Of a stretch of DNA of 64,000 bases, positions 29,604 to 58,444 are shown in pieces. Every line of letters begins with the position of its first letter. Within the stretch, counting starts at the first letter, position 1. Source of the stretch: an uncultured Acidobacteriaceae bacterium. GTDB taxonomy: Bacteria > Acidobacteriota > Terriglobia > Terriglobales > Acidobacteriaceae. Both the position numbers and the translations under genes were made by a program. The notes under the pieces were generated by a model, which saw only the letters and a program-made list of their open reading frames with translations, did no database searches and was not told the origin of the DNA. The stretch spans positions 39,670-103,669 of the forward strand of contig CAVYZB010000010.1 in NCBI GenBank assembly GCA_963772895.1, given 5' to 3'.

Positions 29604-30866
29604 TCACTCGTACCTCAAAGATTCCACAGGATCTAATCTCGAAGCATTCTTGGCGGGAAGGGTGCCAAAGGTGACGCCGATCAGGCACGAGACCAGCATT
29701 GCGATCAGGGCCGAAAGTCCAGACACCGGAAGCTGGTAATGGGTGAAGACCCGGAGCGAAAATGGCAGCGCCAGCCCGGCCAAGGTGCCAATAGTCCCAC
29801 CAATCAAGGAGATCATTACAGCTTCGGAGAGGAACTGCAGCAGGATCTCACGACGCGTCGCCCCCACCGCTTTGCGGATGCCAATTTCTCTAATACGGGC
29901 GCTCACCGTGGCGAGCATAATATTCATGATGCCAACTCCACCGGCAATCAGCGTGATGGCGGCAAACAGCAAGAGAATGATCGTAAATGCATTAGCGGTT
30001 TTCGCCACTAAGCCGAGCACCTGGGTAAGGTCACCGACGGTGTAAACCGATTCCGCTCGATGTCGCGCCTTTATCACCGCAAGAATTCGTTCTGAAGCCC
30101 GGGGAACGCTGCCGGCGTCGGACATCGAAAAGTAAATCTGGTTGACGGCATTGGTATCCGTCAAGTAACGGGCCACGGAGTATGGAATCAGCACTGTATC
30201 GTCTTGTATTTCTGATTGGCCAAACGTCTCTACACTCTCACGAAAGGTGCCGATCACTACGAATGGCAGTCCCTGGATGTTGATTTCGTGTCCCGCCGCG
30301 AACTCGATTCCCCCGTATTGGCGGGTCGCGAAGTCCTCCGTGACGAGGGCTACTTTGTGGTGGGATTGCGAGTCTTGTTGATCGAAAAATCTGCCTGAAC
30401 TTACGATGATGCGGCGCACGTTTACATAGTCTGGGTCCACGCCGAGAATCAACATGTCACGTTGCTTGCCGTTGCCAACCAGGATCGGCTCATGCAAATT
30501 CACCACCGGGGTCGCTTCTTGCACGCCCGGAACCTGCTGTTCCACGGCGGTCATGTCATTCACTGTCAGATAATCTGCGGTGCCCGCGGTCGTGCCTCCA
30601 TTCGCCGACCCCGTATATTCGGCCCAGATTAGATTGGCGCCAATGTTCTGGATTTCATTCAGGACGTACTGTTTACCGGTCAGCGCAATCGTGACAACCA
30701 GAACCAGGGAGAAGGTGCCGATCACCATTCCCAGGGCGGTCATGGTGGCGCGCACCTTGTCGGCGCGAAATGAATCCACGGCGATTGCGAGGATCTCTCG
30801 CAAGACCAAGGTGTTCTTGGGGGACACGGTCCACGAGATTGAGCGCACTTTTGCCGGGCGGGGCAT
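29604..30866 (-). CDS. ABC transporter permease, MacB/FtsX family (no cognate ATPase adjacent)
   Basis: A 420-aa protein with TM1, a large periplasmic domain and three C-terminal TM helices (...REIGIRKAVGATRREILLQFLSEAVMISLIGG...). Confidence 0.8.
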   Translation of the reverse strand: MPRPAKVRSISWTVSPKNTLVLREILAIAVDSFRADKVRATMTALGMVIGTFSLVLVVTIALTGKQYVLNEIQNIGANLIWAEYTGSANGGTTAGTADYLTVNDMTAVEQQVPGVQEATPVVNLHEPILVGNGKQRDMLILGVDPDYVNVRRIIVSSGRFFDQQDSQSHHKVALVTEDFATRQYGGIEFAAGHEINIQGLPFVVIGTFRESVETFGQSEIQDDTVLIPYSVARYLTDTNAVNQIYFSMSDAGSVPRASERILAVIKARHRAESVYTVGDLTQVLGLVAKTANAFTIILLLFAAITLIAGGVGIMNIMLATVSARIREIGIRKAVGATRREILLQFLSEAVMISLIGGTIGTLAGLALPFSLRVFTHYQLPVSGLSALIAMLVSCLIGVTFGTLPAKNASRLDPVESLRYE

Positions 30867-30872
30867 AAATCG

Positions 30873-31247
30873 CTATCTCCTGCCGATGAGCACCAACGTC
30901 ACCCCGGCACAGACCAGAAGAATACCGATCCAACGTTGCAGGCTGACGCGTTCGCCCAGGAAGAACCTGCCGCCCAGCGCTCCGACCACATAGCTGAGCG
31001 CCGTCACAGGTACGACAAAGCTTACATTTTCAAAGGAAAATATCGCAAGCAGCGAGAAGAATCCGATGGCCATCATGCCTACGCCGAGCCACATCCACTT
31101 AACGCGTAAGGCGCGAAGGATTACCGCGAGGAGCGCTCCCGGCCGGAAGTCTTTCACTTCGCCGGTCTCCTTCATCGCGCGCGACATAAATATCTCGCCC
31201 GCCGTTCCGAAGACAACAATCAGAAAAAAGAAGATGAACTCAGCCAC
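30873..31247 (-). CDS. half-size EamA/DMT (SMR-like, ArnE/ArnF-like) membrane protein
   Basis: GTG at 31247 lies 10 nt after GGAG and 2 nt after the stop of the upstream half-size gene. The protein is about 124 aa and hydrophobic, ending ...RWIGILLVCAGVTLVLIG. Confidence 0.6.
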   Translation of the reverse strand: MAEFIFFFLIVVFGTAGEIFMSRAMKETGEVKDFRPGALLAVILRALRVKWMWLGVGMMAIGFFSLLAIFSFENVSFVVPVTALSYVVGALGGRFFLGERVSLQRWIGILLVCAGVTLVLIGRR

Positions 31248-31249
31248 GA

Positions 31250-31666
31250 CTAGCCATTCTCCGTGGTACTGGGATGGGTATGGCCGACGAGAAACACCCC
31301 GATACAAATGACCACGATGCCGGCCCACCGCAATGGAGGGACAACTTCACCCAGCCAGGTCGCGGCCAATAGCGCAACTACGGCGTAGGCAATCGAAGAC
31401 GCCGGCTGCACGTAGCTATAGTCGGCCCATGACAGAACGATCATGTAGGCTGCGAAAAACACAAGCAGAGAGACAACGCCGAGCCATATCGCGCCAGTTG
31501 TGAAAACGCGAGTGAACACGTGCGGCAGTCGGAAGAGGGGCCACGGATCCACGGGTCCCACCTCTTTCATGCCTTTGCCGAGCAGAACATTGCCCAAAGG
31601 GCCGGCAATCGCCATGATCAAAATCAAAATAAAGGTTTTGAAATGTAGTCGCCTGGGAGATTCCAT
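31250..31666 (-). CDS. half-size EamA/DMT (SMR-like, ArnE/ArnF-like) membrane protein
   Basis: A 138-aa hydrophobic protein (...ILILIMAIAGPLGNVLLGKGMKE...RWAGIVVICIGVFLVG...). It is paired with 30873-31247. Confidence 0.65.
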   Translation of the reverse strand: MESPRRLHFKTFILILIMAIAGPLGNVLLGKGMKEVGPVDPWPLFRLPHVFTRVFTTGAIWLGVVSLLVFFAAYMIVLSWADYSYVQPASSIAYAVVALLAATWLGEVVPPLRWAGIVVICIGVFLVGHTHPSTTENG

Positions 31667-31987
31667 TGGCAGTGGTCAGTCGCTCCAAATGCAGAGAGGC
31701 ATAGTCATATGGTATATCAACGAAGCACAACGCGGGAGGTGCACATCCAGAGCGGCCGATGGAAGTGAGGACGATTCCGCCGGGAGAATCGCAGCAACAC
31801 TGAGCTTGAACCCTGGCGCTAGGGCGTGGCATCTGTTAAATCATAAAATGCTATCCTAAGGTATCTGCTCTTTGCAGTACTCCCGTGGCCACGGGAACGA
31901 AAATTGCCAAGCCGCATGTCGCCCTCACCTTGCTCAAGGCGGCTAGTCGCGGCAGGCTGATAATTCGGTATTGAGGGACTGATCGAT

Positions 31988-33919
31988 TTGTGCGGCATTG
32001 TTGGCTTTACTCATAAAGATTGGTCTCCACCTCCGGATCGCATTCGGAACGCCACTTCCACTCTGATCCACCGCGGGCCAGACCAGCTGGGCGTTTACCA
32101 ATCCCGTTTATGCTCGATGGGCGCCACGCGCCTCAAGATTATCGATCTGGAGCACGGCGATCAGCCCATTGCCACTCAAGACGGCGACACGGTGATTGTG
32201 TTCAATGGGGAAATCTATAACCACCTTGAGGTCCGTGCCGAGTTAGAAAAGCTAGGCCATCAATTTCACTCACACTGCGACACGGAGACGGTTCTTCGCG
32301 CTTTTCTCGAGTGGGACACCCAATGTTTCCCGAGGCTGCGCGGCATGTTCGCCGTGGCGCTTTGGACAAACTCCACGCGGCGACTGGTGTTGGCACGCGA
32401 TCGTGTGGGCATCAAACCACTCTACATCGCGCACCGTGGCGAGGATCTGTTCTTTGGGTCGGAACTGAAGGCCATCCTTGAACACCCAGAAATCGATCGC
32501 CGCTTGAGCACTGCCGGCCTGGATTGTTATTTGTCGCTGAACTATGTTCCCGCGCCCTGGACTCTGGTGGACGGAATAGAGAAGCTTCTGCCGGGACATT
32601 GGCTGGAGTGGCAAGACGGAAAAGTGAGCGAGGATGCTTACTGGCGTTTGCCCAACGAAACGCCCGTGCAGCGCAGTTTGGCGTCGGCCGGCGAGGAACT
32701 CGATTTCCTTCTGCAGCAATCGGTTCGCGAACACATGATCTCTGATGTGCCCTTAGGCGTGTGGCTGAGCGGCGGCATCGACTCCTCGACCATTCTTCAT
32801 TATGCTTCGCAGGCATCCACTTCCCGGCTGAAGACTTTCTCCATTTCGTTTCGAGGGCGCAGTTTCGACGAAACCAGTTACATCCAGCAGATGGTCGCCG
32901 AATACGGAACGGAGCACGAGCAGCTCGACCTGAATCCTGAGTTGGATCTGCAGGGCGCGATCGAAGAATTCGCGTATTACTCGGACGAGCCGAGCGCCGA
33001 TGCAGGAGCGTTGCCGGTCTGGTTTCTCTCCAAGCTTTGCAAAACCAGAACCACGGTTGCGTTGAGCGGAGAAGGCGCCGACGAATTGTTTGGGGGATAT
33101 CTAACCTATCGAGCGAATACCCTCGCTCAACACCTCCGGAGACTTCCCCGCAGTGTAATTCAGATGGCGCTCAATGCGATGCGCCTGTGGCCAGTCTCGA
33201 ATGAGAAAATAAGCTTCGAGTACAAACTCAAGCGATTACTCGAAGGCAGCATGATGCCGGCAGAGCTCGCCCACGTTTATTGGAATGGCACTTTTTCCGA
33301 CGCCGAAAAACGCTCACTGCTGGCGATGGAACTTCCGGGCGCACTCCACCAAATCCTCGGCGAGTTGCGAGGAATGCTAACCGACGACAAAGATAACCTG
33401 GGCGCTTTCCTGTGGTTCGATCAAAAGTATTATTTGCCAGACGACATCCTGGTTAAGTCGGACCGCATGAGCATGGCCCACGCCGTCGAGTTGCGGCCGC
33501 CTTTCCTGGATAACCGTATCGTCGAATTCGCCGCCACCTTGCCGGCATCGCTCAAAGTTCGAGGTTCGCAGCAGAAGTTCCTGCTGAAGCGACTCATGCG
33601 CGACAAGTTGCCGCAGTCCATCCTGCGGAGAAAGAAAATTGGTTTCGACATCCCAGCGCACGAATGGCTCCGTGGTCCGCTTCGATCGCTTGTCGTTGAT
33701 ACCTTGCACGCCGGACTTTCCGATCATCCTGAAATATTCAGTTCCGGTGTGATCGAACGTTATCTATGTGATCATTTGGAGAAACGAATCAATGTCGGCT
33801 ATCACTTATGGGGATTAATGATCCTGTTTCTATGGATGAAAAAGTGGCGGATTCAGGCGCCCGCCTCCTCCAGAGCAAACCAGCTGTTGGCGCCCGCGGG
33901 AATTGGTACGTTTATCTAG
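31988..33919 (+). CDS. asnB: asparagine synthase (glutamine-hydrolysing) family amidotransferase
   Basis: A TTG start is followed by Cys (MCGIVGF), the Ntn nucleophile. The protein also has ...VFNGEIYNH..., the PP-loop ...GVWLSGGIDSS... and ...LSGEGADELFGGY.... Confidence 0.9.
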   Translation: MCGIVGFTHKDWSPPPDRIRNATSTLIHRGPDQLGVYQSRLCSMGATRLKIIDLEHGDQPIATQDGDTVIVFNGEIYNHLEVRAELEKLGHQFHSHCDTETVLRAFLEWDTQCFPRLRGMFAVALWTNSTRRLVLARDRVGIKPLYIAHRGEDLFFGSELKAILEHPEIDRRLSTAGLDCYLSLNYVPAPWTLVDGIEKLLPGHWLEWQDGKVSEDAYWRLPNETPVQRSLASAGEELDFLLQQSVREHMISDVPLGVWLSGGIDSSTILHYASQASTSRLKTFSISFRGRSFDETSYIQQMVAEYGTEHEQLDLNPELDLQGAIEEFAYYSDEPSADAGALPVWFLSKLCKTRTTVALSGEGADELFGGYLTYRANTLAQHLRRLPRSVIQMALNAMRLWPVSNEKISFEYKLKRLLEGSMMPAELAHVYWNGTFSDAEKRSLLAMELPGALHQILGELRGMLTDDKDNLGAFLWFDQKYYLPDDILVKSDRMSMAHAVELRPPFLDNRIVEFAATLPASLKVRGSQQKFLLKRLMRDKLPQSILRRKKIGFDIPAHEWLRGPLRSLVVDTLHAGLSDHPEIFSSGVIERYLCDHLEKRINVGYHLWGLMILFLWMKKWRIQAPASSRANQLLAPAGIGTFI

Positions 33920-35796
33920 CTGTCCTGTTGATCGCGGGAATCGTATATCTGAGCGGAATTCTCTCCCCTCCCTCGTTGCAGGACGACGTGGATGCTGTTC
34001 AGGCGCAGATCGCGCGGAACATGATCACATCGGGCGACTGGGTGACGGCTCGCCTGGATGGTGTCGCCTACCTGGAAAAGCCGCCGCTGGTCTACTGGAT
34101 CATGGCGACCTCGTATGAGATCTTCGGAGTGCATGACTGGGCCGCGCGAATTCCGATCGCCCTCTCTGCGATCGGCCTCTGCTGGCTGACTGCCGCTTTT
34201 GGCGTTTGGGCATTTGGAAAACGCGCCGGCTTCTACGCCGGCCTGTCCATTGCGACATGCGTCGGGCTATTTCTCTTTACGCGGGTCTTGATTCCCGACG
34301 TCATGCTCACCTTCACGGTTGCTCTGGCGATGTGGGCGTTGCTCCGGGCCCTCGACGACGAGGAGTCCCATCCCCGCGCGTGGGCCTATGTTCTGGCCGC
34401 CAGTCTCGGAACAGGGCTGCTTCTGAAAAGTTTGATCGGAGTGCTGTTTCCAGTCGCCGCCGGAATCATTTACCTGTTCTTGACCGGTCAGCTGCTTTCC
34501 TCCAGGACCTGGAAGCGGCTTCATCCCATTAGCGGGATCGCCATCATCCTTTTGATTGCTGCACCCTGGCACATTCTTGCGACGTTGCGGAATCCCCCTT
34601 ATTTCGCATTCACGCTGCGAAGTGTGCCGGGTGAATACCACGGATTCCTCTGGTTCTTCTTCATCAACGAGCAACTGCTCCGCTTCCTGAATCTGCGTTA
34701 TCCACGCGATTACGACACGGTCCCTCGCCTCTACTTCTGGCTGTTGCATCTAGTATGGCTATTTCCCTGGAGCATATATCTTCCCGCAGTCGCAAAGCTG
34801 TCCTACAAACCATCGGATCGCGCGGGAAAGGTGCGCTTGCTGGCGCTCTGCTGGATTGGTTTCGTGCTGGTCTTCTTTACCTTTTCCACCACGCAGGAGT
34901 ATTACTCGATGCCTTGTTATCCTGCGTTCGCCCTGTTGCTCGGTTCGGCGATGGCCACTGGTGGCGATTGGGTGCGCAGAGGAACCCGCGCCCTGGCGGT
35001 GATTGCCGGATGCGCGGCCGTGGCGTCGCTGACAATTCTGTTCCTTGTCCGCGGAGTACCCACTCCTGGAGACATTTTCTCGGCGCTCACCACGCATCCC
35101 TCGGCTTACAAGCTTTCGATGGGCCACATGCAGGACCTCACCCTGGAATCGTTCGGCTATCTTCGCCGGCCGCTATTTCTCGCAGGACTGGCTTTCCTGA
35201 TAGGTGCATTGGGAACTCTTCGAGCCACTGGACAACGGGCCTTCCTGGCGGCAACGCTTATGATGGTGTTATTTTTCCAAGCTGCCCGCCTGGCCCTGAT
35301 TACGTTTGATCCCTACCTGTCTTCCCGTCCTTTGGCCGAGGCGCTATTGCGATCGCCTGACGGCAAGCTGATCGTGGACAAACACTATTATGCGTTTTCG
35401 TCTGTCTTCTTTTACACCGACCGCACCGCGCTGCTGTTGAACGGGCGGGTGTTGAACTTTGTGTACGGTTCGTACGCTCCGGGCGCGCCCGATGTTTTTA
35501 TTGACGACGCGGATTTCAAGAATCTCTGGCTGACGCCGGAGCGGTATTACCTGACGGCCAGCGTGTCGCAGTTGCCGCGGCTGGAAAACCTGGTAGGACG
35601 CGAGAAGCTAAATGTGGTTGCCGAAAGCGGCGGCAAATTCCTGGTAACTAATCAGCCGCTACCAGGCTCGAAGTTGCCGGAAGTTGCCGCTCTCGGGCAG
35701 GAGGGGGCCAGCTCCGTCGCCAAGCTGTTGGCACGAACCGGGAGATTTTCTGGGTTCTTTGGTAAAGTTAAGCAAGGGCGCTTCAAATATCAGTAG
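33808..35796 (+). CDS. GT-C fold glycosyltransferase, ArnT/PMT (GT39/GT83)-like
   Basis: A multi-pass membrane protein with the family-typical first loop ...DDVDAVQAQIARNMITSGDWVTARLDGVAYLEKPPLVYWIMA.... The start is ambiguous (ATG at 33808 or 33832). Both overlap the asnB 3' end. Confidence 0.75.
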   Translation: MGINDPVSMDEKVADSGARLLQSKPAVGARGNWYVYLAVLLIAGIVYLSGILSPPSLQDDVDAVQAQIARNMITSGDWVTARLDGVAYLEKPPLVYWIMATSYEIFGVHDWAARIPIALSAIGLCWLTAAFGVWAFGKRAGFYAGLSIATCVGLFLFTRVLIPDVMLTFTVALAMWALLRALDDEESHPRAWAYVLAASLGTGLLLKSLIGVLFPVAAGIIYLFLTGQLLSSRTWKRLHPISGIAIILLIAAPWHILATLRNPPYFAFTLRSVPGEYHGFLWFFFINEQLLRFLNLRYPRDYDTVPRLYFWLLHLVWLFPWSIYLPAVAKLSYKPSDRAGKVRLLALCWIGFVLVFFTFSTTQEYYSMPCYPAFALLLGSAMATGGDWVRRGTRALAVIAGCAAVASLTILFLVRGVPTPGDIFSALTTHPSAYKLSMGHMQDLTLESFGYLRRPLFLAGLAFLIGALGTLRATGQRAFLAATLMMVLFFQAARLALITFDPYLSSRPLAEALLRSPDGKLIVDKHYYAFSSVFFYTDRTALLLNGRVLNFVYGSYAPGAPDVFIDDADFKNLWLTPERYYLTASVSQLPRLENLVGREKLNVVAESGGKFLVTNQPLPGSKLPEVAALGQEGASSVAKLLARTGRFSGFFGKVKQGRFKYQ

Positions 35797-35853
35797 CAAA
35801 ATGAACGTGATTGCGTGGAACGCTCCAGGGACTCTCCCTGAATTACCTGTTGA

Positions 35854-37080
<1,227 letters not shown>

Positions 37081-37124
37081 CGGTACGTCTACGACGCGCA
37101 GCGGGACCGCCCCCCGCAGCCTGC

Positions 37125-38168
37125 CTATGACTTGGCGCAGTCAGAGATCCGCCGGGTGACCAGACGGGCGGCCTTCACCGCGCTGACTACCTTGCCGGAG
37201 AAGACGAAGATTTCTCCCTTGTCCTTTTCCAGGATGTAAAGGGTCCTGCGATCCTGGGCTGGGTTATCTTCCACCACGCGAATGGTGAAGCGCGAGCCAA
37301 GATAGACCGCGTTCCTGGAGGAGGGAACGGCGAGCGCAGAGTCTTTTCGCATCGCTTCAAATCTGCTGGGCGTGAACGGCTCGAAATCGGGCCGGTTCAG
37401 TAACGGTTGATAGATCTCGGGAATCGGCTCATCGGGATTTGTCGTTGTCCAGTGGTTCGTATTCTTGGCTGAACCAAACAGTGACTGGGGTGAACTGCCA
37501 TAGGGGTCGAAGGCGGTGAATGGACCGTCAACCACGACCAGCGATATCCCCTGCAACGCCGGCGGAAGTTGAATCAGGATTTTTTCGGCGACTTGGTATT
37601 TCACGCCTTTAAACAAACCGCGCCCGGGACCCAATCCGTAAGTCGCCCACACTACGTAGTCATATTCGGGGCGCATGGCGGAGCTGAACGCCCGCTGATT
37701 GAAGGAAATATTCAGCGCTTGAATGCGCGACGACAACATGTCTCTCAGAATGTCCGGGTCGTAGATTTGCTCGTCGACTTCGTAGCATTTGTCGATGAAG
37801 CCGAAATCCATCCACTCGGGTCGGCAAGGCCGCGCGCTGAGATGATACTCGGCCATCACTTTTTCGAACAATGCGGGCGGCGTTTGCGAGCCTTCGTGAG
37901 GAATCGCGTAATAGTGCCGGCTGTTGCGCACAATCGCGGGCGCGAATCTGTCCAGGAATTCGGCCCGGGCTTCCAGCGTTTCGCGAATGGTCTCCGGGCT
38001 GCGCGGATAGTGGTATCCCGAATGAATGCGGTACTGATTGATTGCGGACGCGGCACGCAAAACGCCGAGGGGGTCGAAAAGATGAACGTCATGGCCGGCC
38101 TCGGCAAGGCTGATGGCAATGGTAGCGCCGTAGACTCCAGCACCCGCGACCGCAACTTTGGATTTCAT
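37125..38168 (-). CDS. FAD-dependent oxidoreductase (DAO-like)
   Basis: The N-terminal dinucleotide fold is KVAVAGAGVYGATIAISLAEAGHDVHLFD. The protein is 347 aa. Confidence 0.7.
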   Translation of the reverse strand: MKSKVAVAGAGVYGATIAISLAEAGHDVHLFDPLGVLRAASAINQYRIHSGYHYPRSPETIRETLEARAEFLDRFAPAIVRNSRHYYAIPHEGSQTPPALFEKVMAEYHLSARPCRPEWMDFGFIDKCYEVDEQIYDPDILRDMLSSRIQALNISFNQRAFSSAMRPEYDYVVWATYGLGPGRGLFKGVKYQVAEKILIQLPPALQGISLVVVDGPFTAFDPYGSSPQSLFGSAKNTNHWTTTNPDEPIPEIYQPLLNRPDFEPFTPSRFEAMRKDSALAVPSSRNAVYLGSRFTIRVVEDNPAQDRRTLYILEKDKGEIFVFSGKVVSAVKAARLVTRRISDCAKS

Positions 38169-38182
38169 TGGAACCTCGTTGC

Positions 38183-39340
38183 TTACGACCCAGCCTTCGG
38201 CACGACTGGAACCAGAATTCCTTCCCGGATGAAATATTCAACGCCGCGCCAACGTATGGATTTGCGGCCGAAACTGATCAGCCAGATGAGGAAGGCCATT
38301 GCATCCCACAGCGGTATCAAGGCCATTTTCTTCCACAGGCCGGACTGCTTCATGCCCCAGATGCCAATTAGCCAGGTCATCGCGACTCGAAGCACGGCAT
38401 AGCTGCCAAGGTATCCCACGACCACGCTCATTGAGGGATGGGTCGCTATCGCGATCAGCGCCCAAGGCAATCCCCAGGTGAAGATCAAACCGAAATGACC
38501 CCAGGGCCGCATCAGCCTCATTACGGTCATCCAGCGAACGCGTTTGTAAAACAAATCACTGAGCGAGGCGAAATCAGCGACAGTCTGCACAACGTAGGGG
38601 AGCAGCTTGACCTCGTATCCCAACTCGGCGATCAGACGGCCCACGCGCAGGTCATCAGCTGGACGATTTTCAATCGCCTCATAGCCGCCGAAAGCAGCGA
38701 TATTCTTGCGCGTGGTGACGATGGTTTGTCCAAAGGTGAACTTCACGCCGTCCAATTGCCAGGCGACGAAAATTCCCGCAAAGAAATCGGAGATCATCCC
38801 GATCGATTGCAGTTCCTGGACGAGAGTGGTCTCTTTGGTAGAAGCGTAAATGCAAGTCGCACCGCCAACCTTGGGATCGCGAAAGGGCGCGGCCACGGCT
38901 CGCAGATAATCGGGCCCAACCCGGATGTCGCCGTCGGTGATCACCAGCAGATCGTGCTGCGCTTCGCTTACCAGCCGGACCAGCCTGGCAATCTTGTCGT
39001 TGATCGCGCTGCGACCGGATCCGAAAAGCAGACGGATCCGGCGTTCGGGAAAATCCTGAACCAGTTTCTCTAGAATCGGCAGCGCCGGATCATCCGGATC
39101 GACGCAAAAAAGGATTTCGTATTCGGGATAGTCCTGGCGGCAGAAGCTGGCGTAGTTCTCGTAGGCGTCGGGATCGAGTCCCTTGATGGGCTTCAGGCAG
39201 CTTATCGGCGGCGTAAAGTCGGTATTCGGCGGGACTCGCTTCCAGCTCAGAAAGTAGCGTGCAGAGCTATAGAGAGCCAGCAGGTAATAGATGCCGGGAA
39301 CGGCAGCAACAGCGAGGACAATGTAGCTGAGGACTGTCAA
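38183..39340 (-). CDS. membrane glycosyltransferase, GT2 superfamily / GT21 (ceramide glucosyltransferase- or HpnI-like)
   Basis: The protein has an N-terminal TM helix and ...YPEYEILFCVDPDDPALPILEKL...NDKIARLV...LLVITDGDIRVGPDYL...RWMTV..., with the D..D and (Q/R)xxRW-like motifs of this family. C-terminal TM helices follow. Confidence 0.75.
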   Translation of the reverse strand: MTVLSYIVLAVAAVPGIYYLLALYSSARYFLSWKRVPPNTDFTPPISCLKPIKGLDPDAYENYASFCRQDYPEYEILFCVDPDDPALPILEKLVQDFPERRIRLLFGSGRSAINDKIARLVRLVSEAQHDLLVITDGDIRVGPDYLRAVAAPFRDPKVGGATCIYASTKETTLVQELQSIGMISDFFAGIFVAWQLDGVKFTFGQTIVTTRKNIAAFGGYEAIENRPADDLRVGRLIAELGYEVKLLPYVVQTVADFASLSDLFYKRVRWMTVMRLMRPWGHFGLIFTWGLPWALIAIATHPSMSVVVGYLGSYAVLRVAMTWLIGIWGMKQSGLWKKMALIPLWDAMAFLIWLISFGRKSIRWRGVEYFIREGILVPVVPKAGS

Positions 39341-39611: not shown

Positions 39612-40628
39612 ATGCGCGTTTGCGTAACTGGCGGCACAGGTTTTTTGGGCGCGGCCCTGGTGCGAGACTTGCTGGCCCGCAAAGTTCCCGTCCGGGTTTT
39701 AGCCCGGCCTTCCCAGCGTGCCGATCTGCTGGAAACGCACGGCGCGGAGGTTGTGCGTGGAGGATTGGAAGATGCAGACAGTATCGCCCGAGCGGTTGAT
39801 GGGGTTGACGTTGTCTATCATCTCGCAGCCAAGGTCGATACTCCCGGCAGCAGGGCGGATTTTCTTAAAACCAATTTGAGCGGAACAGAGAGGGTCCTGA
39901 CCGCATGCCTCCGACAAGGGGTTAACCGCGTCGTATATTCCAGTTCACTGGCAGTCTACGGCCCGGTCCGCAACGGCCAGCCAATCGACGAGGCAACTCC
40001 CTACGATGAGTCGCCGCAGCTGCGCGACTTTTATGCCGAGTCGAAAATCCTGGCGGATAAGTTTGCCGTCAGCTTCGCACAAGAAACGGGATTACCGTTA
40101 ACCATCGTCAGGCCCGGCATCGTCTATGGTCCAGGCAAGCAACTTCCGGTGGGCCTGCTGGGATTCACGCTGGGGAAGAGCAACTTCGTATTCGGCAATC
40201 CGAATAACCGCATTCCACTGAACTACGTGGAGAATCTGGTCGATGCGTTGCACCTGGTCGTTCATTCCGCGAGTGATGAGCAACTCCAGCAATTCAATAT
40301 CCTCGATGACGACGAACTCACCCTGGCGAAGTACCACGCGGCGAGAACGGAGGTAGACAAAACGACAACTCATTTTTTCGCAGGTTGGCCGGTGCTTCTT
40401 GCGGCGCCTTTCGCGGAAGCCATCCTGCGAGTGACGCCAAACGGCGGCAGCGTGCGGTTTTCAAGGCACCAACTGAAGCGAGCGCTGCAGGATCGCTGGT
40501 ATGACACGCATCGAATCCGCGAGCAAACCGGCTGGGCACCGAAAGTGCCGCTGAAAGAAGCGCTGTATCGCACATGGAGAAATGGCGCGAATCGTTCAAC
40601 CAAACCTGGACTGGGAGACGGAAGTTAG
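39612..40628 (+). CDS. NAD(P)-dependent epimerase/dehydratase-type extended SDR (3-beta-HSD-like)
   Basis: The protein starts MRVCVTGGTGFLGAALVRDLL and has the catalytic ...YAESKILADK... (YxxxK). It is convergent with the PPTase gene, with a 4-nt overlap. Confidence 0.75.
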   Translation: MRVCVTGGTGFLGAALVRDLLARKVPVRVLARPSQRADLLETHGAEVVRGGLEDADSIARAVDGVDVVYHLAAKVDTPGSRADFLKTNLSGTERVLTACLRQGVNRVVYSSSLAVYGPVRNGQPIDEATPYDESPQLRDFYAESKILADKFAVSFAQETGLPLTIVRPGIVYGPGKQLPVGLLGFTLGKSNFVFGNPNNRIPLNYVENLVDALHLVVHSASDEQLQQFNILDDDELTLAKYHAARTEVDKTTTHFFAGWPVLLAAPFAEAILRVTPNGGSVRFSRHQLKRALQDRWYDTHRIREQTGWAPKVPLKEALYRTWRNGANRSTKPGLGDGS

Positions 40629-41395
40629 GACGCACTAGAGGCAGTAGGAGTCGGGATCTCTAAGAAAATCGGCGGGGCGGGCGAAGGAGAGGCGACTACG
40701 GTTCGCACCAGATCACCCGTATTTTGCCACCACCCATAAAAGGTCTTGCCACCCTCATAAATGACGTGCAGCGGGCGCCAGCTGTTGAAGCTATCGGAGC
40801 GTAACGCGAAGGAAGAGTCTTCTGCGTGGTCTTCGTCTCCCGGCTGCGCCGGACGGCCGGGATGAACTATCACGCTGCGGGTATCGATCCGAAGCCCGGT
40901 CCGCAGCGCTTTCAGGGTGCTTTCCTTTGCACTCCAGAGCAAGGCCAAGAGCTGCGGGCGATCGGACGCGCGCGTCCTCTCAATTAAGGCTCGCTCTCCA
41001 TTCGTGAAGTAGTCGGCAATAAATGCATCGCTACGGGTCTCGATCACTTCCAGATCGCAACCTAGTTCCGTATTCGACGACGCGATGGCACATGCAGCAA
41101 CACCGGCGCGGTGGCTGAGCGAAATGGTAATCGCCGCTGGTTTGTTCGCCACAAAAACTTCTGGCGCGCCGGACGCCGCCGGCCGTACCTCGATATCCGC
41201 AAGGGCACGCGGATGGCTGGGGAGCTTCCAGTAAATCGCCAGCGCGCGTTTCCCCGTCCATCGGCCCAACCGCCAGTCGGCGTGGCGCTTGGCGAAACGC
41301 ATACCGTCCAGTCGAGTCGCTTCGCTGGCGCTTAACCAATCACTCTCCGACGGTACTTCGGCTTCGGTCTGTTCGAGCCAATACAGGTCCATCAT
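40625..41395 (-). CDS. 4'-phosphopantetheinyl transferase, Sfp/PfaE type
   Basis: A 256-aa protein with ...ISLSHRAGVAACAI...GCDLEVIE...LWSAKESTLKALRTGL... (PPTase motifs 2 and 3). Its start overlaps the carboxylase stop (ATGA at 41392-41395). Confidence 0.8.
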   Translation of the reverse strand: MMDLYWLEQTEAEVPSESDWLSASEATRLDGMRFAKRHADWRLGRWTGKRALAIYWKLPSHPRALADIEVRPAASGAPEVFVANKPAAITISLSHRAGVAACAIASSNTELGCDLEVIETRSDAFIADYFTNGERALIERTRASDRPQLLALLWSAKESTLKALRTGLRIDTRSVIVHPGRPAQPGDEDHAEDSSFALRSDSFNSWRPLHVIYEGGKTFYGWWQNTGDLVRTVVASPSPAPPIFLEIPTPTASSAS

Positions 41396-44300
41396 GCTTG
41401 TCCGATGCCAGAGATCATGAGTATCTCCTCAACGGGCGCCTCTTTCCGTAAATGACTTCCGGCTTGTACCTCCCTGACTACCGACTCCTCCGTCTTTCTC
41501 ATGCCGCGTTCGACGGCATCGATGAGGTATGGGCGAAGACTTGCCGGCGGAATAATACGATTCAGAGCACCTACCCTGAGCGCCCGATGCACACTATGTA
41601 CGCGATCGAACTCCTCAGCCATCTCACCCAGCTTCTCCGAGTGTACGACTTTGAAAAGTTCGTTCCATTCAGCGCGCAGCCGGGCCTTCTCCTTGCCGTC
41701 GGCCTTAGCCATTGCTTGGGTCAGCGCTTCCACTCGCTCGTCCTTACGGGCCCGGGATTCGACCTCGCTGGAAAACACGACGGCCGCCGCGGGTGCGCCA
41801 CCAATGACAGAAGCGTAAGTTCCCTCCAACGCTACTACCTCGAGCTGCTCGTTCAGCGCCCGCGAGAAAACTACATACGCGCCCCCGTGATAGCGGGAGA
41901 TCACGCAAAAGATCATGGGGCCTTTGAAGTTGACCACGGCCCGCCCAATCTGCGCGCCGTACTCAAGCTGTAGCTTGCGCATCGACTCGGGCGATCCGTC
42001 AAACCCCGACAGATTGGCCAGAATAACTACTGGCCGATTATTGCTGGCCGCATTGATCGCTCGAGCCAACTTCTTGGAGGAGAGAGGAAAGAGCGTCCCA
42101 GCACTCCATTGGTCGGGTCCATCTGCCGGGACAAATCCTAAGCGGGGGACCTGCTTGGATTCGATGCCGATGAGGCAAACCGGATAGCCGCCGAGATGGG
42201 CATCCCAAACCACTGCAGTTTCGGCGCCCCGCATGCCGGGCCAGCGTTCCAGTGGACAAAGATCCTGGTCTACAACTGCCCGCATCACGCTGCGAATGTC
42301 GAAGGACTTCTTCCGCCCGGCGTTGGTGTCGTCGGAGAAAATCTCGCCCACTCGAGCGAAACCGTTGTCAGAACCGGTGCCGTGCGGGTATGTCTGCACA
42401 TCGCGGTCAATGGGGTCGTTGGTGGCGGACCGCCGCGGGAATCGCTCGCCCGGCGCTACGTAGGTGTGCTCATAATGGCGCAAAAGAATGTGGCAGGCTT
42501 GATCGATGTCGCGCGCCCAATACTGCGCCTGGCCGTTGATGCCCATGATGCGATCGTACCCGCCGATACCTTCGTTGTCTTCGGCCGAGACGCTGCCCGA
42601 GTAGTCAAGGGCACGCTTGCCGGTGAGCACCATTGCCGCTTTCGGCGTCATGATCAGAATGCCGCGGGTATGCATGAGCATGGTCGCTTCGGCGTTCCAA
42701 TAGGGCTGTGCTCCGACGTTGATCCCGTTGATCACCAGATTCACTTCGCCGCCTGCCTGCGTGAACTCGACCAGGCGACGCAGGACGCGGGCAATCCAGT
42801 CCATGTTTTCCACGCCGCTTTCCATCGAGATCTTCGCGCCGGCCGAGATCGGAAACCACTCCAGCGGAACGCGCATCTGCTCGGCAAGATCCAGGGCTGC
42901 AAGGATGCGCCGGCATTCGGGTTCAGCGAGTGCGCCCAGATCGCCGCTCGGATCGCCTAACAGCAACACCCTCGTCATGCCCTCGGGATACTTGGCGGTA
43001 AAGTTGCGGATGACGCCAACGATGATGTTGGATTTATTTTGTCCCGGCGCACGATCGACCGGTATCAGACGACCTTCTGAATCAAGATCGTGCTCCAGAA
43101 AATCGCCGGGGGGGAATTCCGCGCGAGTATTCTCGCGGGCAGGCGTCAGCATTTTGATGATTTCGTAGGGATAGATGAGTCCCCGCCGGCGCATTCGAAC
43201 TACCTTCTGGTTGTACTCGGTCAACGGTTTCATCAGTTGTAGCGTGCTAAGCGGCCGGAAGGTCATAAGCAGGCCCGCGTCGCCGGGCGCCGAAATGCGC
43301 ATCACCATATCGCGCAATTCGCCGGTCTGCGGATTGGGAATACAAGCGCGGACTACCACTTGTTCTAAACCCAGGCCATCCGTCGACGAGGCCAGTTTGT
43401 GTGCAATATCGTTTAGTTCATCCGGTTTGAGGTCGAAAACCGGCCAAACGTAAAGAAAGATCCGATTCCAGTAGAGACGCTCGTGAGCGGCGCGCCGCGA
43501 CTGGAACAGCCGGATGCCCGCTACTGCTTCAGCAAACATGCGCTCCAAGTGCGGCAGTTGCACGATGCGACCTGTATCGTCCCGTACCGGAGTTAAGTCG
43601 CGGACTTCCGCAACCGCAAACAGCCGCTCGTCTTTGGGATTTTCTTTGGCCCTGGCATGCAGGAGATATACGTCTTCAACCGACGGCAGCCGCTCAACGG
43701 TAAAGTTCTTCAAGCGCCACAGATGTAACCGTTCGGCCATCATCGGATGGACTCCGCGGAATAGCTTTTCTTCTTCAAAAGCATTGCCGGAAAACTGATA
43801 AGTGAAATGCTGCATGCCAGCTATGCCTTCACCACAGCCTGGACCAGAGATTGCCACCACGATCCGCTGAATGGGGCGAGGGAAGCAAGCCTGGTTAAGC
43901 CTCGAGCAAACTTCCTGCTGTGTGACCTCTTGCTCAGCCAACGAACCCGACTTCCAAAGATAGAGATCGATAACAATGTCGTGCTCGGCCGGCACGTCCC
44001 CTATGCTAGGACACATTGCCTGTATCGCTTCCGCGAGCCGATCGTAATCAGCGTGGGCGGCCAGGACGTGGACGCGCCTGCCATCCTTCACATATTCCGC
44101 CGATACACAGGAGTTTCCATTCGCCGGCAAAGGGCGAAAGTTCATGAGTGATTGCCCACGATAATATCGAGACGTAACCACTTCCAGCATCAAGCGGCGC
44201 AACTCGGGGTCCGCGGTGGCAAAGCGGCCCGAGAAGAGGCTCGCCAGTGGTTGCGGACATTCGATCAACGCACTAACTCTCTCGTGCCGGTCCGCGGCTT

Positions 44301-47044: not shown

Positions 47045-47083
47045 AAAGTCTCCTCAACCGACCGGCCAGATCAATTGCATTGA

Positions 47084-56000: not shown

Positions 56001-56319
56001 ACGCTTCGCGGGTAGACGCGATGGCCCATTTTTGGGCAACGTCCATGGCATCGACTACGCGGGGCGGGATAGGCAGGTGCCATTTCATGGGCTCCCACAC
56101 GTATTCCCGCACCCAGCCACCAATCTTCGAGTAGGTCTTGTCGGGCGCGCTGTGATCGGAATCGTAATAAAGCGCCGGGTCCCAACGGTCGGATGGAACC
56201 TCGCTGATGCTGTAACGGCTGTTCTTCACGTTTTCCCAGAAAGCCGGTACGTTCACGGCATCGGGTAGAACTGCCCCTGCGCCCACAATCGCAATGGCAC
56301 GATGAGCGGTGTTTTCCAT
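47084..56319 (-). CDS. PUFA-synthase (PfaA)-like type I megasynthase, KS - AT - KS - 5xACP - KR - PS-DH; two 1-nt frame disruptions as sequenced (about 55362-55378 and about 53135-53160)
   Basis: KS1 (56319 to about 55000) has ...[11 protein letters not shown]..., ...[12 protein letters not shown]... and ...[13 protein letters not shown].... AT (about 54500-53600) has ...[10 protein letters not shown]... and ...[11 protein letters not shown].... KS2 (about 53230-51700) has ...[12 protein letters not shown]..., ...[11 protein letters not shown]... and ...[11 protein letters not shown].... Five ACP-like repeats lie at 51310-49691. KR (about 49400-48100) has ...[15 protein letters not shown]...YSSANDLL.... 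DH (about 47950-47084) has ...[14 protein letters not shown].... The total is 9236 nt (3n+2). Confidence 0.9.
49691..51310 (-). repeat. five tandem carrier-protein (ACP-like) coding repeats inside the megasynthase
   Basis: Equivalent CATGTC positions lie at 51248, 50888, 50534, 50180 and 49856, giving periods of 360, 354, 354 and 324 nt. The core unit is EKTGYP(Q/K)DMLD(V/L)DLDLEADLG(V/I)[13 protein letters not shown].... Pro/Ala/Thr-rich linkers sit between the units. Confidence 0.9.
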
Positions 56320-58422: not shown

Positions 58423-58444
58423 TGTCGGTGCCTCTCTTTGCTTC

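What the first reader, a model, noticed from the sequence alone, without database searches (positions are those of the whole stretch)
30873..39340. Arn-pathway-like gene logic built around a UDP-sulfoquinovose synthase: candidate periplasmic sulfoquinovosylation system
Within about 8.5 kb lie six relevant genes:
- Two half-size EamA/DMT genes separated by 2 nt, the layout of the ArnE/ArnF flippase heterodimer.
- An AsnB-type amidotransferase.
- A multi-pass GT-C enzyme with the ArnT/PMT first-loop signature (...YLEKPPLVYW...).
- A protein collinear over its whole length with SQD1/SqdB.
- A FAD oxidoreductase.
- A GT21/GT2 membrane glycosyltransferase of the type that loads sugars onto lipid acceptors.

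No SqdX- or SqdD-type SQDG synthase is visible. The set matches the Arn logic step for step. A nucleotide-sugar maker feeds a GT2 that loads a lipid carrier, a small-DMT heterodimer flips it, and a GT-C transfers the sugar on the outer face. The donor here would be the sulfonated sugar. Possible targets are lipid A or LPS core, a protein, or the lipid made by the neighbouring megasynthase. I am not aware of a described bacterial system of this composition.
Basis: inference. Interest (0 to 1): 0.65.

Follow-up and report, generated by a model that had tools for sequence, protein, structure and literature searches.

The report
Sulfoquinovose envelope-glycosylation gene module in Acidobacteria
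Soil Acidobacteria of the class Terriglobia keep a true UDP-sulfoquinovose synthase next to membrane enzymes of the kind that decorate the cell envelope from the outside. This predicts an undescribed sulfonated surface lipid or glycan in one of the most abundant soil phyla.

Summary

- **The sugar-maker is genuine.** The SqdB-like protein aligns without gaps to Arabidopsis SQD1 over 382 residues (628 bits), and all catalytic residues are kept.
- **The gene set is conserved.** I anchored searches separately on SqdB, on the GT21 and on the GT-C. In most Terriglobia loci the same genes recur within 6-10 kb, in about 30 different gene orders. They are SqdB, an ArnT-like GT-C, an HpnI-like GT21, an AsnB-like amidotransferase, an ArnE/F-style pair of half-size EamA genes, and often a MacB-type permease.
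- **What is not core.** No other gene family recurs. The neighbouring polyketide synthase is not part of the module. The FAD oxidoreductase and the SDR are accessory.

The Arn-like reading is only partly supported. A lipid-linked, flipped sugar route is very plausible, but the step "GT21 loads undecaprenyl phosphate" is not shown. Three results count against it:
- Characterised GT21 enzymes glycosylate lipid hydroxyl groups.
- Some relatives carry a true ArnC-type GT2 coupled to the GT-C while keeping the GT21.
- Some species lack the GT-C in the locus but keep everything else.

The main rival is a beta-sulfoquinovosyl lipid made by the GT21. I rate this a new variant of a known kind, with moderately high interest.

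The parts
29604..30866 (-). MacB/FtsX-type permease with a periplasmic core domain and no ATPase domain. It is a frequent but not universal member, and lies 6 nt downstream of EamA_a in the same direction.
   Evidence: MacB_PCD 115 bits and FtsX 67 bits. Present in 26 of 57 full loci. It forms a co-directional string MacB-EamA-EamA-AsnB-GT-C-SqdB in 7 loci.
30873..31247 (-). Half-size EamA/DMT membrane protein a (124 aa from GTG 31247). Proposed flippase subunit.
   Evidence: EamA 37.7 bits and a weak ArnE hit of 20 bits. The start lies 2 nt after the stop of EamA_b. About four hydrophobic segments.
31250..31666 (-). Half-size EamA/DMT membrane protein b (138 aa). Proposed flippase subunit.
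   Evidence: EamA 33.8 bits. A profile search finds the pair in 38-41 of 57 SqdB-anchored full loci. In many loci the pair sits directly beside the GT21.
31988..33919 (+). Glutamine-dependent AsnB-like amidotransferase (643 aa). Its carboxylate substrate is unknown.
   Evidence: Asn_synthase 299 bits and GATase_7 153 bits. The best NCBIfam model is the EPS-associated XrtA/PEP-CTERM amidotransferase (502 bits, below its cut-off of 817). The best solved relative is hydroxyamidotransferase 7YLZ. It almost always lies immediately upstream of the GT-C and overlaps it.
33808..35796 (+). ArnT/PMT-like GT-C glycosyltransferase (up to 662 aa). The start may be 33808, 33832 or 33844, and it overlaps the end of the AsnB gene.
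   Evidence: PMT_2 72 bits; ArnT model 91 bits (cut-off 567); 103 bits to 5EZM. D59, D60, D62, E90, K91, P163, D164, K207, N262, P263 and TQEYYSMP are nearly invariant in 64 orthologues.
35863..37080 (+). UDP-sulfoquinovose synthase (SqdB/SQD1 orthologue, 405 aa).
   Evidence: 628 bits in a gapless alignment to SQD1 (1QRR). T145, Y182, H183, K186 and the GGDGYCGW motif are conserved. NF041015 scores 478 bits against a cut-off of 575.
37125..38168 (-). FAD oxidoreductase with a D-amino-acid/glycine-oxidase fold (347 aa). Accessory. It lies 14 nt downstream of the GT21 on the same strand.
   Evidence: Only the N-terminal part of DAO matches by sequence. The AlphaFold model has pLDDT 77.6 and pTM 0.81. 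Its Foldseek TM-scores to glycine and D-amino-acid oxidases are 0.65-0.69. Present in 13 of 57 full loci.
38183..39340 (-). HpnI-like GT21 membrane glycosyltransferase (385 aa). It is inverting, has an N-terminal TM helix and C-terminal hydrophobic helices, and is proposed to attach sulfoquinovose to a membrane lipid.
   Evidence: Glyco_transf_21 115 bits; HpnI model 283 bits (cut-off 310). 90 bits to human ceramide glucosyltransferase. 28-31% identical to annotated Burkholderiales HpnI. Present in 47 of 57 full loci.
39612..40628 (+). HpnA/OleD-like extended SDR (338 aa). Accessory. It travels with the GT21 and the FAD oxidoreductase in a subset of loci.
   Evidence: Epimerase 144 bits. HpnA scores 137 bits (cut-off 368) and OleD 133 bits. 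Present in 12 of 81 loci, always beside the GT21.

Best explanation
This is a conserved Terriglobia module for putting sulfoquinovose on the outer face of the cytoplasmic membrane through a lipid-linked intermediate.

Proposed route:
1. SqdB makes UDP-alpha-sulfoquinovose from UDP-glucose and sulfite. This step is shown as far as sequence can show it.
2. The GT21 is the only GT-A glycosyltransferase in more than 90% of the modules. On the cytoplasmic face it transfers the sugar, with inversion, to a membrane lipid. I take this lipid to be a polyprenyl phosphate. This is inferred.
3. The heterodimer of two half-size EamA proteins flips the lipid-linked sugar. In some relatives an MprF-type flippase-like protein takes that place. 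This is inferred from the layout and from the replacement pattern.
4. The ArnT-like GT-C transfers the sugar to a periplasmic acceptor. Candidates are lipid A or LPS core, another envelope glycan, or a membrane lipid head group. The acceptor is unknown.

The AsnB-like enzyme is translationally coupled to the GT-C. It probably amidates a carboxylate on the same target or precursor. The MacB-type permease may help move the product.

My estimates:
- About 0.55 that the GT-C route carries sulfoquinovose.
- About 0.35-0.4 that the GT21 is the carrier loader in this window.

A sulfonate keeps its negative charge at the low pH of peat and acid soils, where these bacteria live. That gives a plausible selective reason (inference).
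For: - SqdB orthology and catalytic residues.
- ORF family clustering over 81 loci finds only SqdB, GT-C, GT21, AsnB, the EamA halves and the MacB permease conserved, plus accessory FADox and SDR.
- The GT-C and the GT21 occur together in 44 of 57 SqdB-anchored full loci, in 29 arrangements.
- The linkage holds when anchored on the GT21: SqdB, GT-C and AsnB are each present in 38 of 48 loci.
- It also holds when anchored on the GT-C: 59 of 66 loci have SqdB within 6 kb.
- Minimal strings of the form SqdB-GT21-GT-C plus the EamA pair exist (L017, L028, L030, L056).
- Single co-directional strings MacB-EamA-EamA-AsnB-GT-C-SqdB exist.
- The GT-C keeps the ArnT acidic loop, E/K, RNP and Tyr positions.
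- The EamA pair is often directly beside the GT21.
- The EamA pair is replaced by an LPG_synthase_TM flippase-like gene in L249, L259, L009, L010 and L016.
- In Acidiferrales the operon AsnB-GT-C-ArnC-like GT2-(flippase-like)-SqdB is itself a complete Arn-type set that includes SqdB.
- L016 has two GT-C copies, one beside the GT2 and one in the GT21 operon.
Against: - Every characterised GT21 or HpnI-type enzyme uses a lipid hydroxyl acceptor: ceramide, bacteriohopanetetrol, diacylglycerol or a carotenoid (established knowledge).
- This GT21 keeps the invariant ADD and K-R-x-R-W motifs of that group.
- I found no precedent for a GT21 acting on a polyprenyl phosphate.
- In 9 related loci an ArnC-like GT2 sits next to the GT-C, and in L015 it overlaps the GT-C by 4 nt. 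Seven of those loci still have the GT21, so the two are not simple equivalents.
- Several species, including the cultured Tunturiibacter lichenicola MP8S11, have GT21-SqdB-AsnB-EamA pair with no GT-C in the locus.
- The role of AsnB is unexplained.
- The acceptor is unknown.
- There are no biochemical data.
Confidence: 0.45

Rival explanations
1. Sulfoglycolipid reading. The GT21 is a terminal lipid glycosyltransferase. It makes a beta-sulfoquinovosyl lipid on a hydroxyl acceptor such as bacteriohopanetetrol, diacylglycerol or a glycerol-bound membrane-spanning lipid. The EamA pair flips that glycolipid. The GT-C, with AsnB, is an optional further step. It decorates this lipid or a related target with a different sugar, taken from a polyprenyl-phosphate donor made by a GT2. 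That GT2 is linked in some genomes and unlinked in most.
For: - GT21 family chemistry and the retained ADD and RxRW motifs.
- The nearest curated model is HpnI (283 bits, full length).
- PMC5462960 reports that subdivision 1 and 3 Acidobacteria have 'hpnI' but no hpnK. That would fit an HpnI-like enzyme that does not use UDP-GlcNAc.
- The same paper notes that acidobacterial membrane-spanning lipids appear to carry large polar head groups.
- The ArnC-like GT2 coexists with the GT21.
- Variants without a GT-C keep GT21, SqdB and the EamA pair.
- Some loci hold only the GT21 plus the EamA pair (L196, L200).
- Terriglobia commonly carry another ArnC-like GT2 elsewhere in the genome.
Against: - It needs an unlinked donor synthase in more than 90% of genomes, although the synthase, flippase and transferase are linked.
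- It does not explain why SqdB is usually in the same transcription unit as AsnB and the GT-C rather than with the GT21.
- No hopanoid genes were found in the 64-kb window.
- Identity to true HpnI is only 28-31%.
Confidence: 0.3
2. Two independent functions are merely kept side by side. SqdB plus the GT21 make a sulfolipid. AsnB, the GT-C, the EamA pair and the MacB permease form an unrelated envelope-modification unit that uses a sugar other than sulfoquinovose.
For: - AsnB-GT-C pairs occur as second copies away from SqdB and the GT21 (L272, L279, L273).
- Six SqdB genes stand alone.
- The GT21 is usually transcribed convergently, not in the AsnB-GT-C-SqdB string.
Against: - The genes are interleaved in many orders, for example SqdB-AsnB-GT-C-GT21, SqdB-GT-C-GT21 and SqdB-GT21-GT-C.
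- The linkage holds from three independent anchors across orders of Terriglobia.
- Neutral co-location would not survive about 30 rearrangements.
Confidence: 0.12
3. The SqdB-like enzyme makes a nucleotide sugar other than UDP-sulfoquinovose, so the module has nothing to do with a sulfonated sugar.
For: The score on NCBIfam's UDP-sulfoquinovose synthase equivalog is below the curated cut-off (478 against 575).
Against: - The alignment to SQD1 is gapless and roughly 70% identical (my estimate) over 382 residues.
- T145, Y182, H183 and K186 are conserved.
- All other SDR families score below 50 bits.
Confidence: 0.05
4. The sugar is attached to the lipid made by the neighbouring PfaA-like polyketide synthase, as in heterocyst-glycolipid logic.
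For: In the window, the PPTase, the multidomain acetyl-CoA carboxylase and the PKS lie directly beside the GT21 and SDR.
Against: The carboxylase and PPTase are found only in the four closest relatives (L001, L002, L004, L005). They are absent within 10 kb in all other module-bearing loci.
Confidence: 0.03

Closest known systems
Arn pathway of Escherichia coli and Salmonella (ArnC GT2, ArnE/ArnF flippase, ArnT GT-C; L-Ara4N on lipid A)
   Same: The steps match: nucleotide-sugar synthesis, a lipid-linked sugar, a heterodimer of two adjacent half-size DMT proteins, then an ArnT-like GT-C. The GT-C keeps the acidic loop and the residues that bind the carrier phosphate.
   Different: - The sugar would be anionic sulfoquinovose rather than cationic Ara4N.
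- There are no ArnA, ArnB or ArnD genes.
- The cytoplasmic transferase is a GT21, not an ArnC-type GT2.
- The GT-C and the EamA proteins score far below the ArnT and ArnE equivalog cut-offs.
- An AsnB-like amidotransferase is part of the module.
Rhizobium RgtE / RgtA-D system (GT2 makes dodecaprenyl-phosphate-galacturonic acid; ArnT-like GT-C enzymes add it to lipid A and LPS core)
   Same: It is the precedent for an acidic sugar delivered to LPS by ArnT-like GT-C enzymes from a polyprenyl-phosphate donor (established knowledge).
   Different: The sugar is a uronic acid, not a sulfonate. The loader is a classical GT2. No linkage to an AsnB-like enzyme or to an EamA pair is known to me.
Sulfolobus acidocaldarius Agl3-dependent N-glycosylation
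   Same: It is the only well-known case in which UDP-sulfoquinovose feeds a lipid-carrier glycan that a GT-C (AglB) transfers outside the cell. This is from my own knowledge. only listed papers on Sulfolobus N-glycosylation (e.g. PMC2948927, PMC4287180) and I did not read them.
   Different: It is archaeal. The carrier is a dolichol-linked oligosaccharide, the transferase is an oligosaccharyltransferase, and the target is protein Asn. It has no GT21, no EamA pair and no AsnB.
SQDG synthesis (SqdB/SqdX in cyanobacteria, SQD1/SQD2 in plants, SqdB/SqdD in Rhodobacter)
   Same: It uses the same first enzyme, and the window protein is a close orthologue.
   Different: The known SQDG synthases are retaining GT4 or GT8 enzymes that give alpha-SQDG. 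None is linked here. The linked GT21 is inverting, so any lipid it makes would be beta-linked and not canonical SQDG.
HpnI (bacteriohopanetetrol N-acetylglucosaminyltransferase)
   Same: It is the closest curated family to the GT21. The match is full length and the score is 283 bits against a cut-off of 310. Terriglobia are hopanoid producers (PMC5462960).
   Different: Identity to annotated HpnI is 28-31%. There is no hpnK partner and no hopanoid genes in the window. The gene is linked to SqdB rather than to hpn genes.
Three-component glycosylation systems of Gram-positive bacteria (CsbB/GtrB GT2, GtcA/GtrA flippase, YfhO GT-C)
   Same: The logic of loader, small flippase and GT-C is the same. 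The Acidiferrales loci with an ArnC-like GT2 and a flippase-like protein fit this pattern closely.
   Different: The protein families differ for the flippase and, in the window, for the loader. The targets there are teichoic acids.

Membership tests
SQD1/SqdB UDP-sulfoquinovose synthase | Full-length collinearity with SQD1, including its specific insertions relative to other SDRs | tested here: met
   Gapless alignment of residues 2-383 to 1QRR residues 3-384, 628 bits.
SQD1/SqdB UDP-sulfoquinovose synthase | Catalytic Thr145, Tyr182 and Lys186, plus His183 and the GxxGxxG NAD site | tested here: met
   [17 protein letters not shown] and GGDGYCGW are identical in the query and SQD1. Residue numbers were counted on the printed alignment.
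SQD1/SqdB UDP-sulfoquinovose synthase | Score above NCBIfam equivalog NF041015 cut-off | tested here: not met
   478 bits against a cut-off of 575, although the match covers 1-384 of 384 model positions.
SQD1/SqdB UDP-sulfoquinovose synthase | Converts UDP-glucose and sulfite to UDP-sulfoquinovose | not testable with these tools
   Needs an enzyme assay.
ArnT (GT83) lipid A Ara4N transferase | GT-C/PMT_2 membrane domain with an acidic first periplasmic loop and carrier-phosphate ligands (CmArnT D55, E84, K85, R270, Y345) | tested here: met
   PMT_2 72 bits and alignment to 5EZM. DDxD, E90/K91, RNP and the YYSMP Tyr are nearly invariant in 64 orthologues. R261 is kept in 54 of 61.
ArnT (GT83) lipid A Ara4N transferase | Equivalog-level similarity to ArnT | tested here: not met
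   NF009784 scores 91 bits against a cut-off of 567.
ArnT (GT83) lipid A Ara4N transferase | Operon context with arnA, arnB, arnC and arnD | tested here: not met
   No such genes in the window or in the conserved neighbourhood.
ArnE/ArnF flippase | Two adjacent half-size (about 110-140 aa, four-helix) DMT/EamA genes | tested here: met
   124 aa and 138 aa, 2 nt apart, each matching the C-terminal part of the EamA profile.
ArnE/ArnF flippase | Equivalog-level similarity to ArnE or ArnF | tested here: not met
   ArnE model scores 20 bits against a cut-off of 92. ArnF gives no hit.
ArnC/GtrB/DPM1-type polyprenyl-phosphate glycosyltransferase (GT2) | PF00535 catalytic domain of about 320 aa with two C-terminal TM helices | tested here: not met
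   The window has no such gene (tblastn). The window enzyme is a GT21. Such GT2 genes do occur beside the GT-C in 9 related loci.
HpnI (hopanoid glycosyltransferase, GT21-like) | Score above TIGR03472 cut-off | tested here: not met
   283 bits against a cut-off of 310. Identity to annotated HpnI is 28-31%.
HpnI (hopanoid glycosyltransferase, GT21-like) | Genomic association with hopanoid genes (shc, hpnH, hpnG, hpnK, hpnJ) | tested here: not met
   None among the scanned ORFs of the 64-kb window, and none among the conserved neighbours in 81 loci. The rest of the genome was not examined.
GT21 / ceramide-glucosyltransferase-like lipid glycosyltransferases | Glyco_transf_21 domain with DxD, a catalytic Asp (ED/DD motif) and (Q/R/K)xxRW | tested here: met
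   PF13506 115 bits. 90 bits to human ceramide glucosyltransferase. TDGD, ADD and KRVRW are invariant or nearly so in the orthologues.
SQDG synthase (SqdX/SQD2 GT4, SqdD GT8) | A retaining GT4 or GT8 gene linked to sqdB | tested here: not met
   No such family in the window or among the conserved neighbours, including the loci with SqdB alone.

The most novel reading that the evidence does not exclude
Terriglobia run the first bacterial periplasmic sulfoquinovosylation pathway. A GT21-family enzyme acts as a polyprenyl-phosphate sulfoquinovosyltransferase, an acceptor type not known for that family. An ArnE/F-like EamA heterodimer flips the intermediate. An ArnT-like GT-C then places alpha-sulfoquinovose on lipid A, LPS core or a membrane-lipid head group. 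The result would be a negative surface charge that does not depend on pH, and a large unrecognised soil source of sulfoquinovose. A more extreme version is that the coupled AsnB-like enzyme acts on the C6 sulfonate itself. I put that at about 3%.
Probability: 0.3. Interest if true: 0.8.

Novelty: new variant of a known kind. Interest (0 to 1): 0.62.

Why it matters
**Sulfur cycle.** Sulfoquinovose is one of the most abundant organosulfur compounds on Earth. Its production is attributed almost entirely to phototrophs through SQDG. Terriglobia are among the dominant bacteria of acidic soils and peat. A conserved module that turns UDP-sulfoquinovose into an envelope conjugate would add a non-photosynthetic soil source. 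It would also help explain why sulfoquinovose degraders are common in soil.

**Cell envelope.** It would reveal a new envelope chemistry in a phylum whose LPS and polar lipid head groups are largely uncharacterised. One possible use is keeping surface charge at low pH.

**Enzymology.** Either answer is new. The GT21 would be a polyprenyl-phosphate glycosyltransferase, or it would make a beta-sulfoquinovosyl lipid that is not SQDG.

**Testability.** The module is present in cultured Tunturiibacter strains, so the question can be tested directly.

Tried and rejected
- **GT21 structure.** The only alignment I could hand in was shallow (32 sequences, 75-93% identical). The model had mean pLDDT 51 and pTM 0.42. 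I did not use it or run a fold search on it.
- **FAD oxidoreductase by sequence.** A single sequence and a 10-sequence profile against the PDB matched only the first ~35-58 N-terminal residues (FAD-binding region), including UDP-galactopyranose mutase. The mutase idea was dropped once the model showed a D-amino-acid/glycine-oxidase fold.
The test is therefore inconclusive.
- **Is the ArnC-like GT2 of L007 elsewhere in window-type genomes?** Close orthologues (above 60%) occur only in five module loci (L081-L085). About 75 other Terriglobia loci hold a 50-57% relative with no module gene nearby except one GT21 hit in L153. This neither supports nor excludes a donor synthase acting in trans.
- **SqdX beside lone SqdB genes.** None was found.
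- **RNA and signal scans.** Rfam over the whole window gave no match. The promoter and terminator scans gave nothing above shuffled expectation.
- **Literature.** Searches for sulfoquinovose with Acidobacteria, undecaprenyl, ArnT or GT39, and for GT21 with polyprenyl, found nothing relevant.
- **Megasynthase as target.** Rejected on synteny.

Full report
**What is in the window**

The window comes from an Acidobacteriaceae genome. The SqdB gene is 98% identical to that of a peat or soil MAG, and its best relatives are almost all Terriglobia.

Between 29.6 and 40.6 kb the ORF list and profile scans give the following genes:

| Coordinates | Strand | Product |
|---|---|---|
| 29604-30866 | - | MacB/FtsX-type permease without an ATPase domain |
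| 30873-31247 | - | half-size EamA protein a |
| 31250-31666 | - | half-size EamA protein b |
| 31988-33919 | + | AsnB-like glutamine amidotransferase |
| 33808-35796 | + | PMT_2/ArnT-like GT-C |
| 35863-37080 | + | SQD1/SqdB-like SDR |
| 37125-38168 | - | FAD oxidoreductase |
| 38183-39340 | - | GT21 glycosyltransferase |
| 39612-40628 | + | HpnA/OleD-like SDR |

- The GT-C has no possible start after the AsnB stop, so it overlaps the end of AsnB by 76-112 nt.
- Beyond 40.6 kb lie a PPTase, a multidomain acetyl-CoA carboxylase and a PfaA-like polyketide synthase.
- Upstream lie unrelated housekeeping genes.
- No GT4 or GT8 SQDG synthase was found among the large ORFs scanned.

**The individual proteins**

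*SqdB.* The SDR is a genuine SQD1/SqdB orthologue.
- It scores 628 bits against Arabidopsis SQD1 and aligns without a gap over residues 2-383.
- The NAD motif and T145, Y182, H183 and K186 are conserved.
- It falls below NCBIfam's equivalog cut-off (478 against 575). I read that as a property of the model, not of the protein.

*GT-C.* Its only solved relative is Cupriavidus ArnT (103 bits).
- Across 64 orthologues, several positions are invariant or nearly so. These are the acidic first-loop motif (D59, D60, D62), E90/K91 in YLEKPP, P163/D164, K207, the RNP motif and the TQEYYSMP tyrosines.
- Some of these correspond to the ArnT residues that bind the undecaprenyl phosphate.
- The protein is far from being an ArnT orthologue (91 bits against a cut-off of 567).

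*GT21.*
- It resembles human ceramide glucosyltransferase (90 bits).
- It matches the HpnI model over its full length, just below cut-off (283 against 310).
- It is 28-31% identical to annotated Burkholderiales HpnI and 24-27% identical to alphaproteobacterial GT21 enzymes.
- Its DxD, ADD and K-R-x-R-W motifs are invariant in the orthologues.

*AsnB-like protein.*
- It has the catalytic Cys2.
- It is closest to the long, polysaccharide-associated branch of the family.
- Its best solved relative is a hydroxyamidotransferase.

*FAD protein.* Sequence shows only an FAD-binding N-terminus. A reasonable model (pLDDT 77.6, pTM 0.81) has the D-amino-acid/glycine-oxidase fold, with TM-scores of 0.65-0.69.

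I fetched 80 SqdB loci from different species and looked for the window's proteins in them.

- Unsupervised clustering of all non-overlapping ORFs in these loci plus the window gave eight recurrent families:

| Family | Loci (of 81) |
|---|---|
| SqdB | 77 |
| GT-C | 63 |
| GT21 | 58 |
| AsnB | 56 |
| EamA halves | 46 |
| MacB permease | 40 |
| FAD oxidoreductase | 19 |
| HpnA-like SDR | 12 |

- Nothing else occurs in more than 7 loci.
- Among 57 loci with full 10-kb flanks, the GT-C and the GT21 occur together in 44. Six have SqdB alone.
- A profile search finds the EamA pair in 38-41 of the 57.
- The genes appear in 29 different orders and orientations. Examples are:
  - the single string MacB-EamA-EamA-AsnB-GT-C-SqdB with a convergent GT21
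  - SqdB-AsnB-GT-C-GT21
  - SqdB-GT-C-GT21 with the EamA pair opposite
  - SqdB-GT21-GT-C
- Anchoring on a GT21 from another genus gave the same picture. Of 48 full loci, SqdB, GT-C and AsnB are each present in 38, and the EamA halves in about 36.
- Anchoring on a GT-C did too. 59 of 66 loci have SqdB within 6 kb.
- The carboxylase and PPTase next to the polyketide synthase are shared only by the four nearest relatives, so the megasynthase is not part of the module.

**Variants that bear on mechanism**

1. *An ArnC-type GT2 in some relatives.* Six Acidiferrales loci lack the EamA pair.
   - They carry an ArnC/GtrB-type GT2 immediately after the GT-C, overlapping it by 4 nt in L015.
   - The GT2 scores 207 bits on the ArnC model and has a PF00535 domain.
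   - In three of the six, an LPG_synthase_TM "flippase-like" protein follows, and then SqdB.
   - FADox-GT21-SDR sit on the other strand.
   - That operon is a complete Arn-type set and it includes SqdB.
2. *A different GT-C and GT2 pair.* L007, L008, L060 and L083 carry a divergent GT-C (about 60% identical) paired with a different ArnC-like GT2. L060 and L083 also have the GT21. L007 and L008 do not.
3. *Two GT-C copies.* L016 has one GT-C beside the GT2 and flippase-like gene, and another at the end of the FADox-GT21-SDR operon.
4. *Flippase swap without a GT2.* L249 and L259 have the flippase-like gene between the GT-C and the GT21, with no GT2.
5. *EamA pair beside the GT21.* The pair is very often directly beside the GT21. 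A few loci hold only those three genes.
6. *No GT-C in the locus.* Several species have GT21-SqdB-AsnB-EamA pair with the GT-C cleanly absent. One is the cultured Tunturiibacter lichenicola MP8S11. T. gelidiferens M8UP28 has the full set.
7. *AsnB and the GT-C as a unit.* AsnB and the GT-C are almost always adjacent and co-directional where both occur, even in second copies far from SqdB.

**Interpretation**

The shown parts are these:
- A genuine UDP-sulfoquinovose synthase is present.
- It is tightly and anciently linked to two membrane glycosyltransferases of different folds, to a small flippase-type pair (or a substitute flippase-like protein), and to an amidotransferase.

The following parts are inferred.
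- GT-C enzymes as a class use polyprenyl-phosphate-linked donors on the outer face of the membrane. This one keeps the phosphate ligands.
- SqdB usually sits in the GT-C's transcription unit. I therefore think the GT-C route most likely carries sulfoquinovose (about 0.55).
- In the window, and in over 90% of modules, the GT21 is the only candidate for the cytoplasmic lipid-loading step. Its frequent adjacency to the EamA pair fits a product that must be flipped.

Three observations count against the GT21 as a polyprenyl-phosphate loader:
- The acceptor chemistry of every characterised GT21 or HpnI-type enzyme, together with the retained base and RxxRW motifs.
- Its coexistence with true ArnC-type GT2 genes.
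- The variants that have no GT-C in the locus.

The strongest rival is that the GT21 makes a beta-sulfoquinovosyl lipid, and that the GT-C with AsnB is an add-on decorating step.
- The acceptor could be bacteriohopanetetrol, diacylglycerol or a membrane-spanning glycerolipid.
- A published survey reports 'hpnI' without hpnK in subdivision 1 and 3 Acidobacteria. It also reports membrane-spanning lipids that are released only by acid hydrolysis (PMC5462960). Both would fit this rival, but neither is a test.
- Because GT21 enzymes invert, any such lipid would not be canonical alpha-SQDG.

**Comparison with known systems and novelty**

- The logic is that of the Arn, RgtE/RgtA-D and GtrB/GtrA/GT-C three-component systems.
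- The sugar has a precedent on a lipid carrier only in Sulfolobus N-glycosylation. This is from my own knowledge. only listed papers on that topic and I did not read them.
- Membership tests fail at the orthologue level for ArnT, ArnE, ArnC and HpnI. They succeed for SQD1/SqdB and for the broad GT-C, EamA and GT21 families.
- Six full-text searches found no description of a bacterial system that links sqdB with a GT-C, an EamA pair or a GT21.
- I rate it a new variant of a known kind. It is well supported as a conserved module, its chemistry is unresolved, and it can be tested in cultured Tunturiibacter strains.

**Limits**

- Only 6-10 kb on each side of each anchor could be seen.
- The collection scans are capped and not exhaustive. 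One search missed its own query genome.
- The GT21 model was too poor to use.
- No experiment is available.

Noticed in passing
window 40625-56319 (- strand): A PPTase, a eukaryote-like multidomain acetyl-CoA carboxylase and a PfaA-like PKS lie here. The carboxylase is split into a BC-BCCP ORF (44366-47044) and a central+CT ORF (41392-44508) that overlap by 143 nt. The PKS is split into three overlapping ORFs, and one KS domain is divided between 55234-56319 and 53085-55442. The splits look like frameshifts, either real or sequencing errors. The carboxylase and PPTase are shared only with the four nearest relatives.
   Followed up: partly
window 56737-62407 (- strand): An acyl-CoA dehydrogenase, ETF alpha and beta subunits, and an Fe-S/CCG-domain oxidoreductase lie directly upstream of the PKS. 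They may form an electron-transfer unit tied to the lipid synthase.
   Followed up: no
window 15689-17946 (+ strand): An EgtB-like protein (DinB_2 plus FGE-sulfatase domain) is followed by an EgtD-type histidine methyltransferase (Methyltransf_33, 363 bits). This looks like an ergothioneine biosynthesis pair.
   Followed up: no
L016 7716-9826; L009, L010, L015, L022, L040; also L249, L259: Acidiferrales-type loci carry an ArnC-like GT2 directly after the GT-C (4-nt overlap in L015). Some also have an LPG_synthase_TM (MprF-type) flippase-like gene in place of the EamA pair. L016 has two GT-C copies, one with each glycosyltransferase.
   Followed up: yes
L167 (Tunturiibacter lichenicola MP8S11, NZ_CP132944.1) and L187 (T. 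gelidiferens M8UP28, NZ_CP132939.1): These are two cultured congeners. M8UP28 has GT21, SqdB, GT-C, AsnB and the EamA pair. MP8S11 has the same locus with the GT-C cleanly missing. They form a natural pair for comparative lipidomics. I could not determine whether MP8S11 has a GT-C elsewhere.
   Followed up: partly
GT21, window 38183-39340, and PMC5462960: The 'hpnI' reported by BLAST in subdivision 1 and 3 Acidobacteria that lack hpnK may be this SqdB-linked GT21 rather than a true hopanoid glucosaminyltransferase. If so, hopanoid side-chain predictions for these taxa would need revision.
   Followed up: no
L012-L014, L023, L039, L071; L273: Six loci have SqdB with no module gene within 10 kb. 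The MAG that holds L014 has AsnB, the GT-C and a flippase-like gene on another contig (L273). So the module can be split across the genome.
   Followed up: partly
L035, L079, L201, L237, L238, L305: Module genes 63-78% identical to Terriglobia versions sit in bins labelled Verrucomicrobiia, Deferrimicrobiaceae, Acetobacteraceae, Binatia and Dormibacterota. This is probably binning contamination, though horizontal transfer is not excluded.
   Followed up: no
window 11343-14508 (+ strand): Two large ORFs (332 aa and 730 aa) have no Pfam match. They lie downstream of a flotillin and a PspA/IM30 gene (8776-11229).
   Followed up: no
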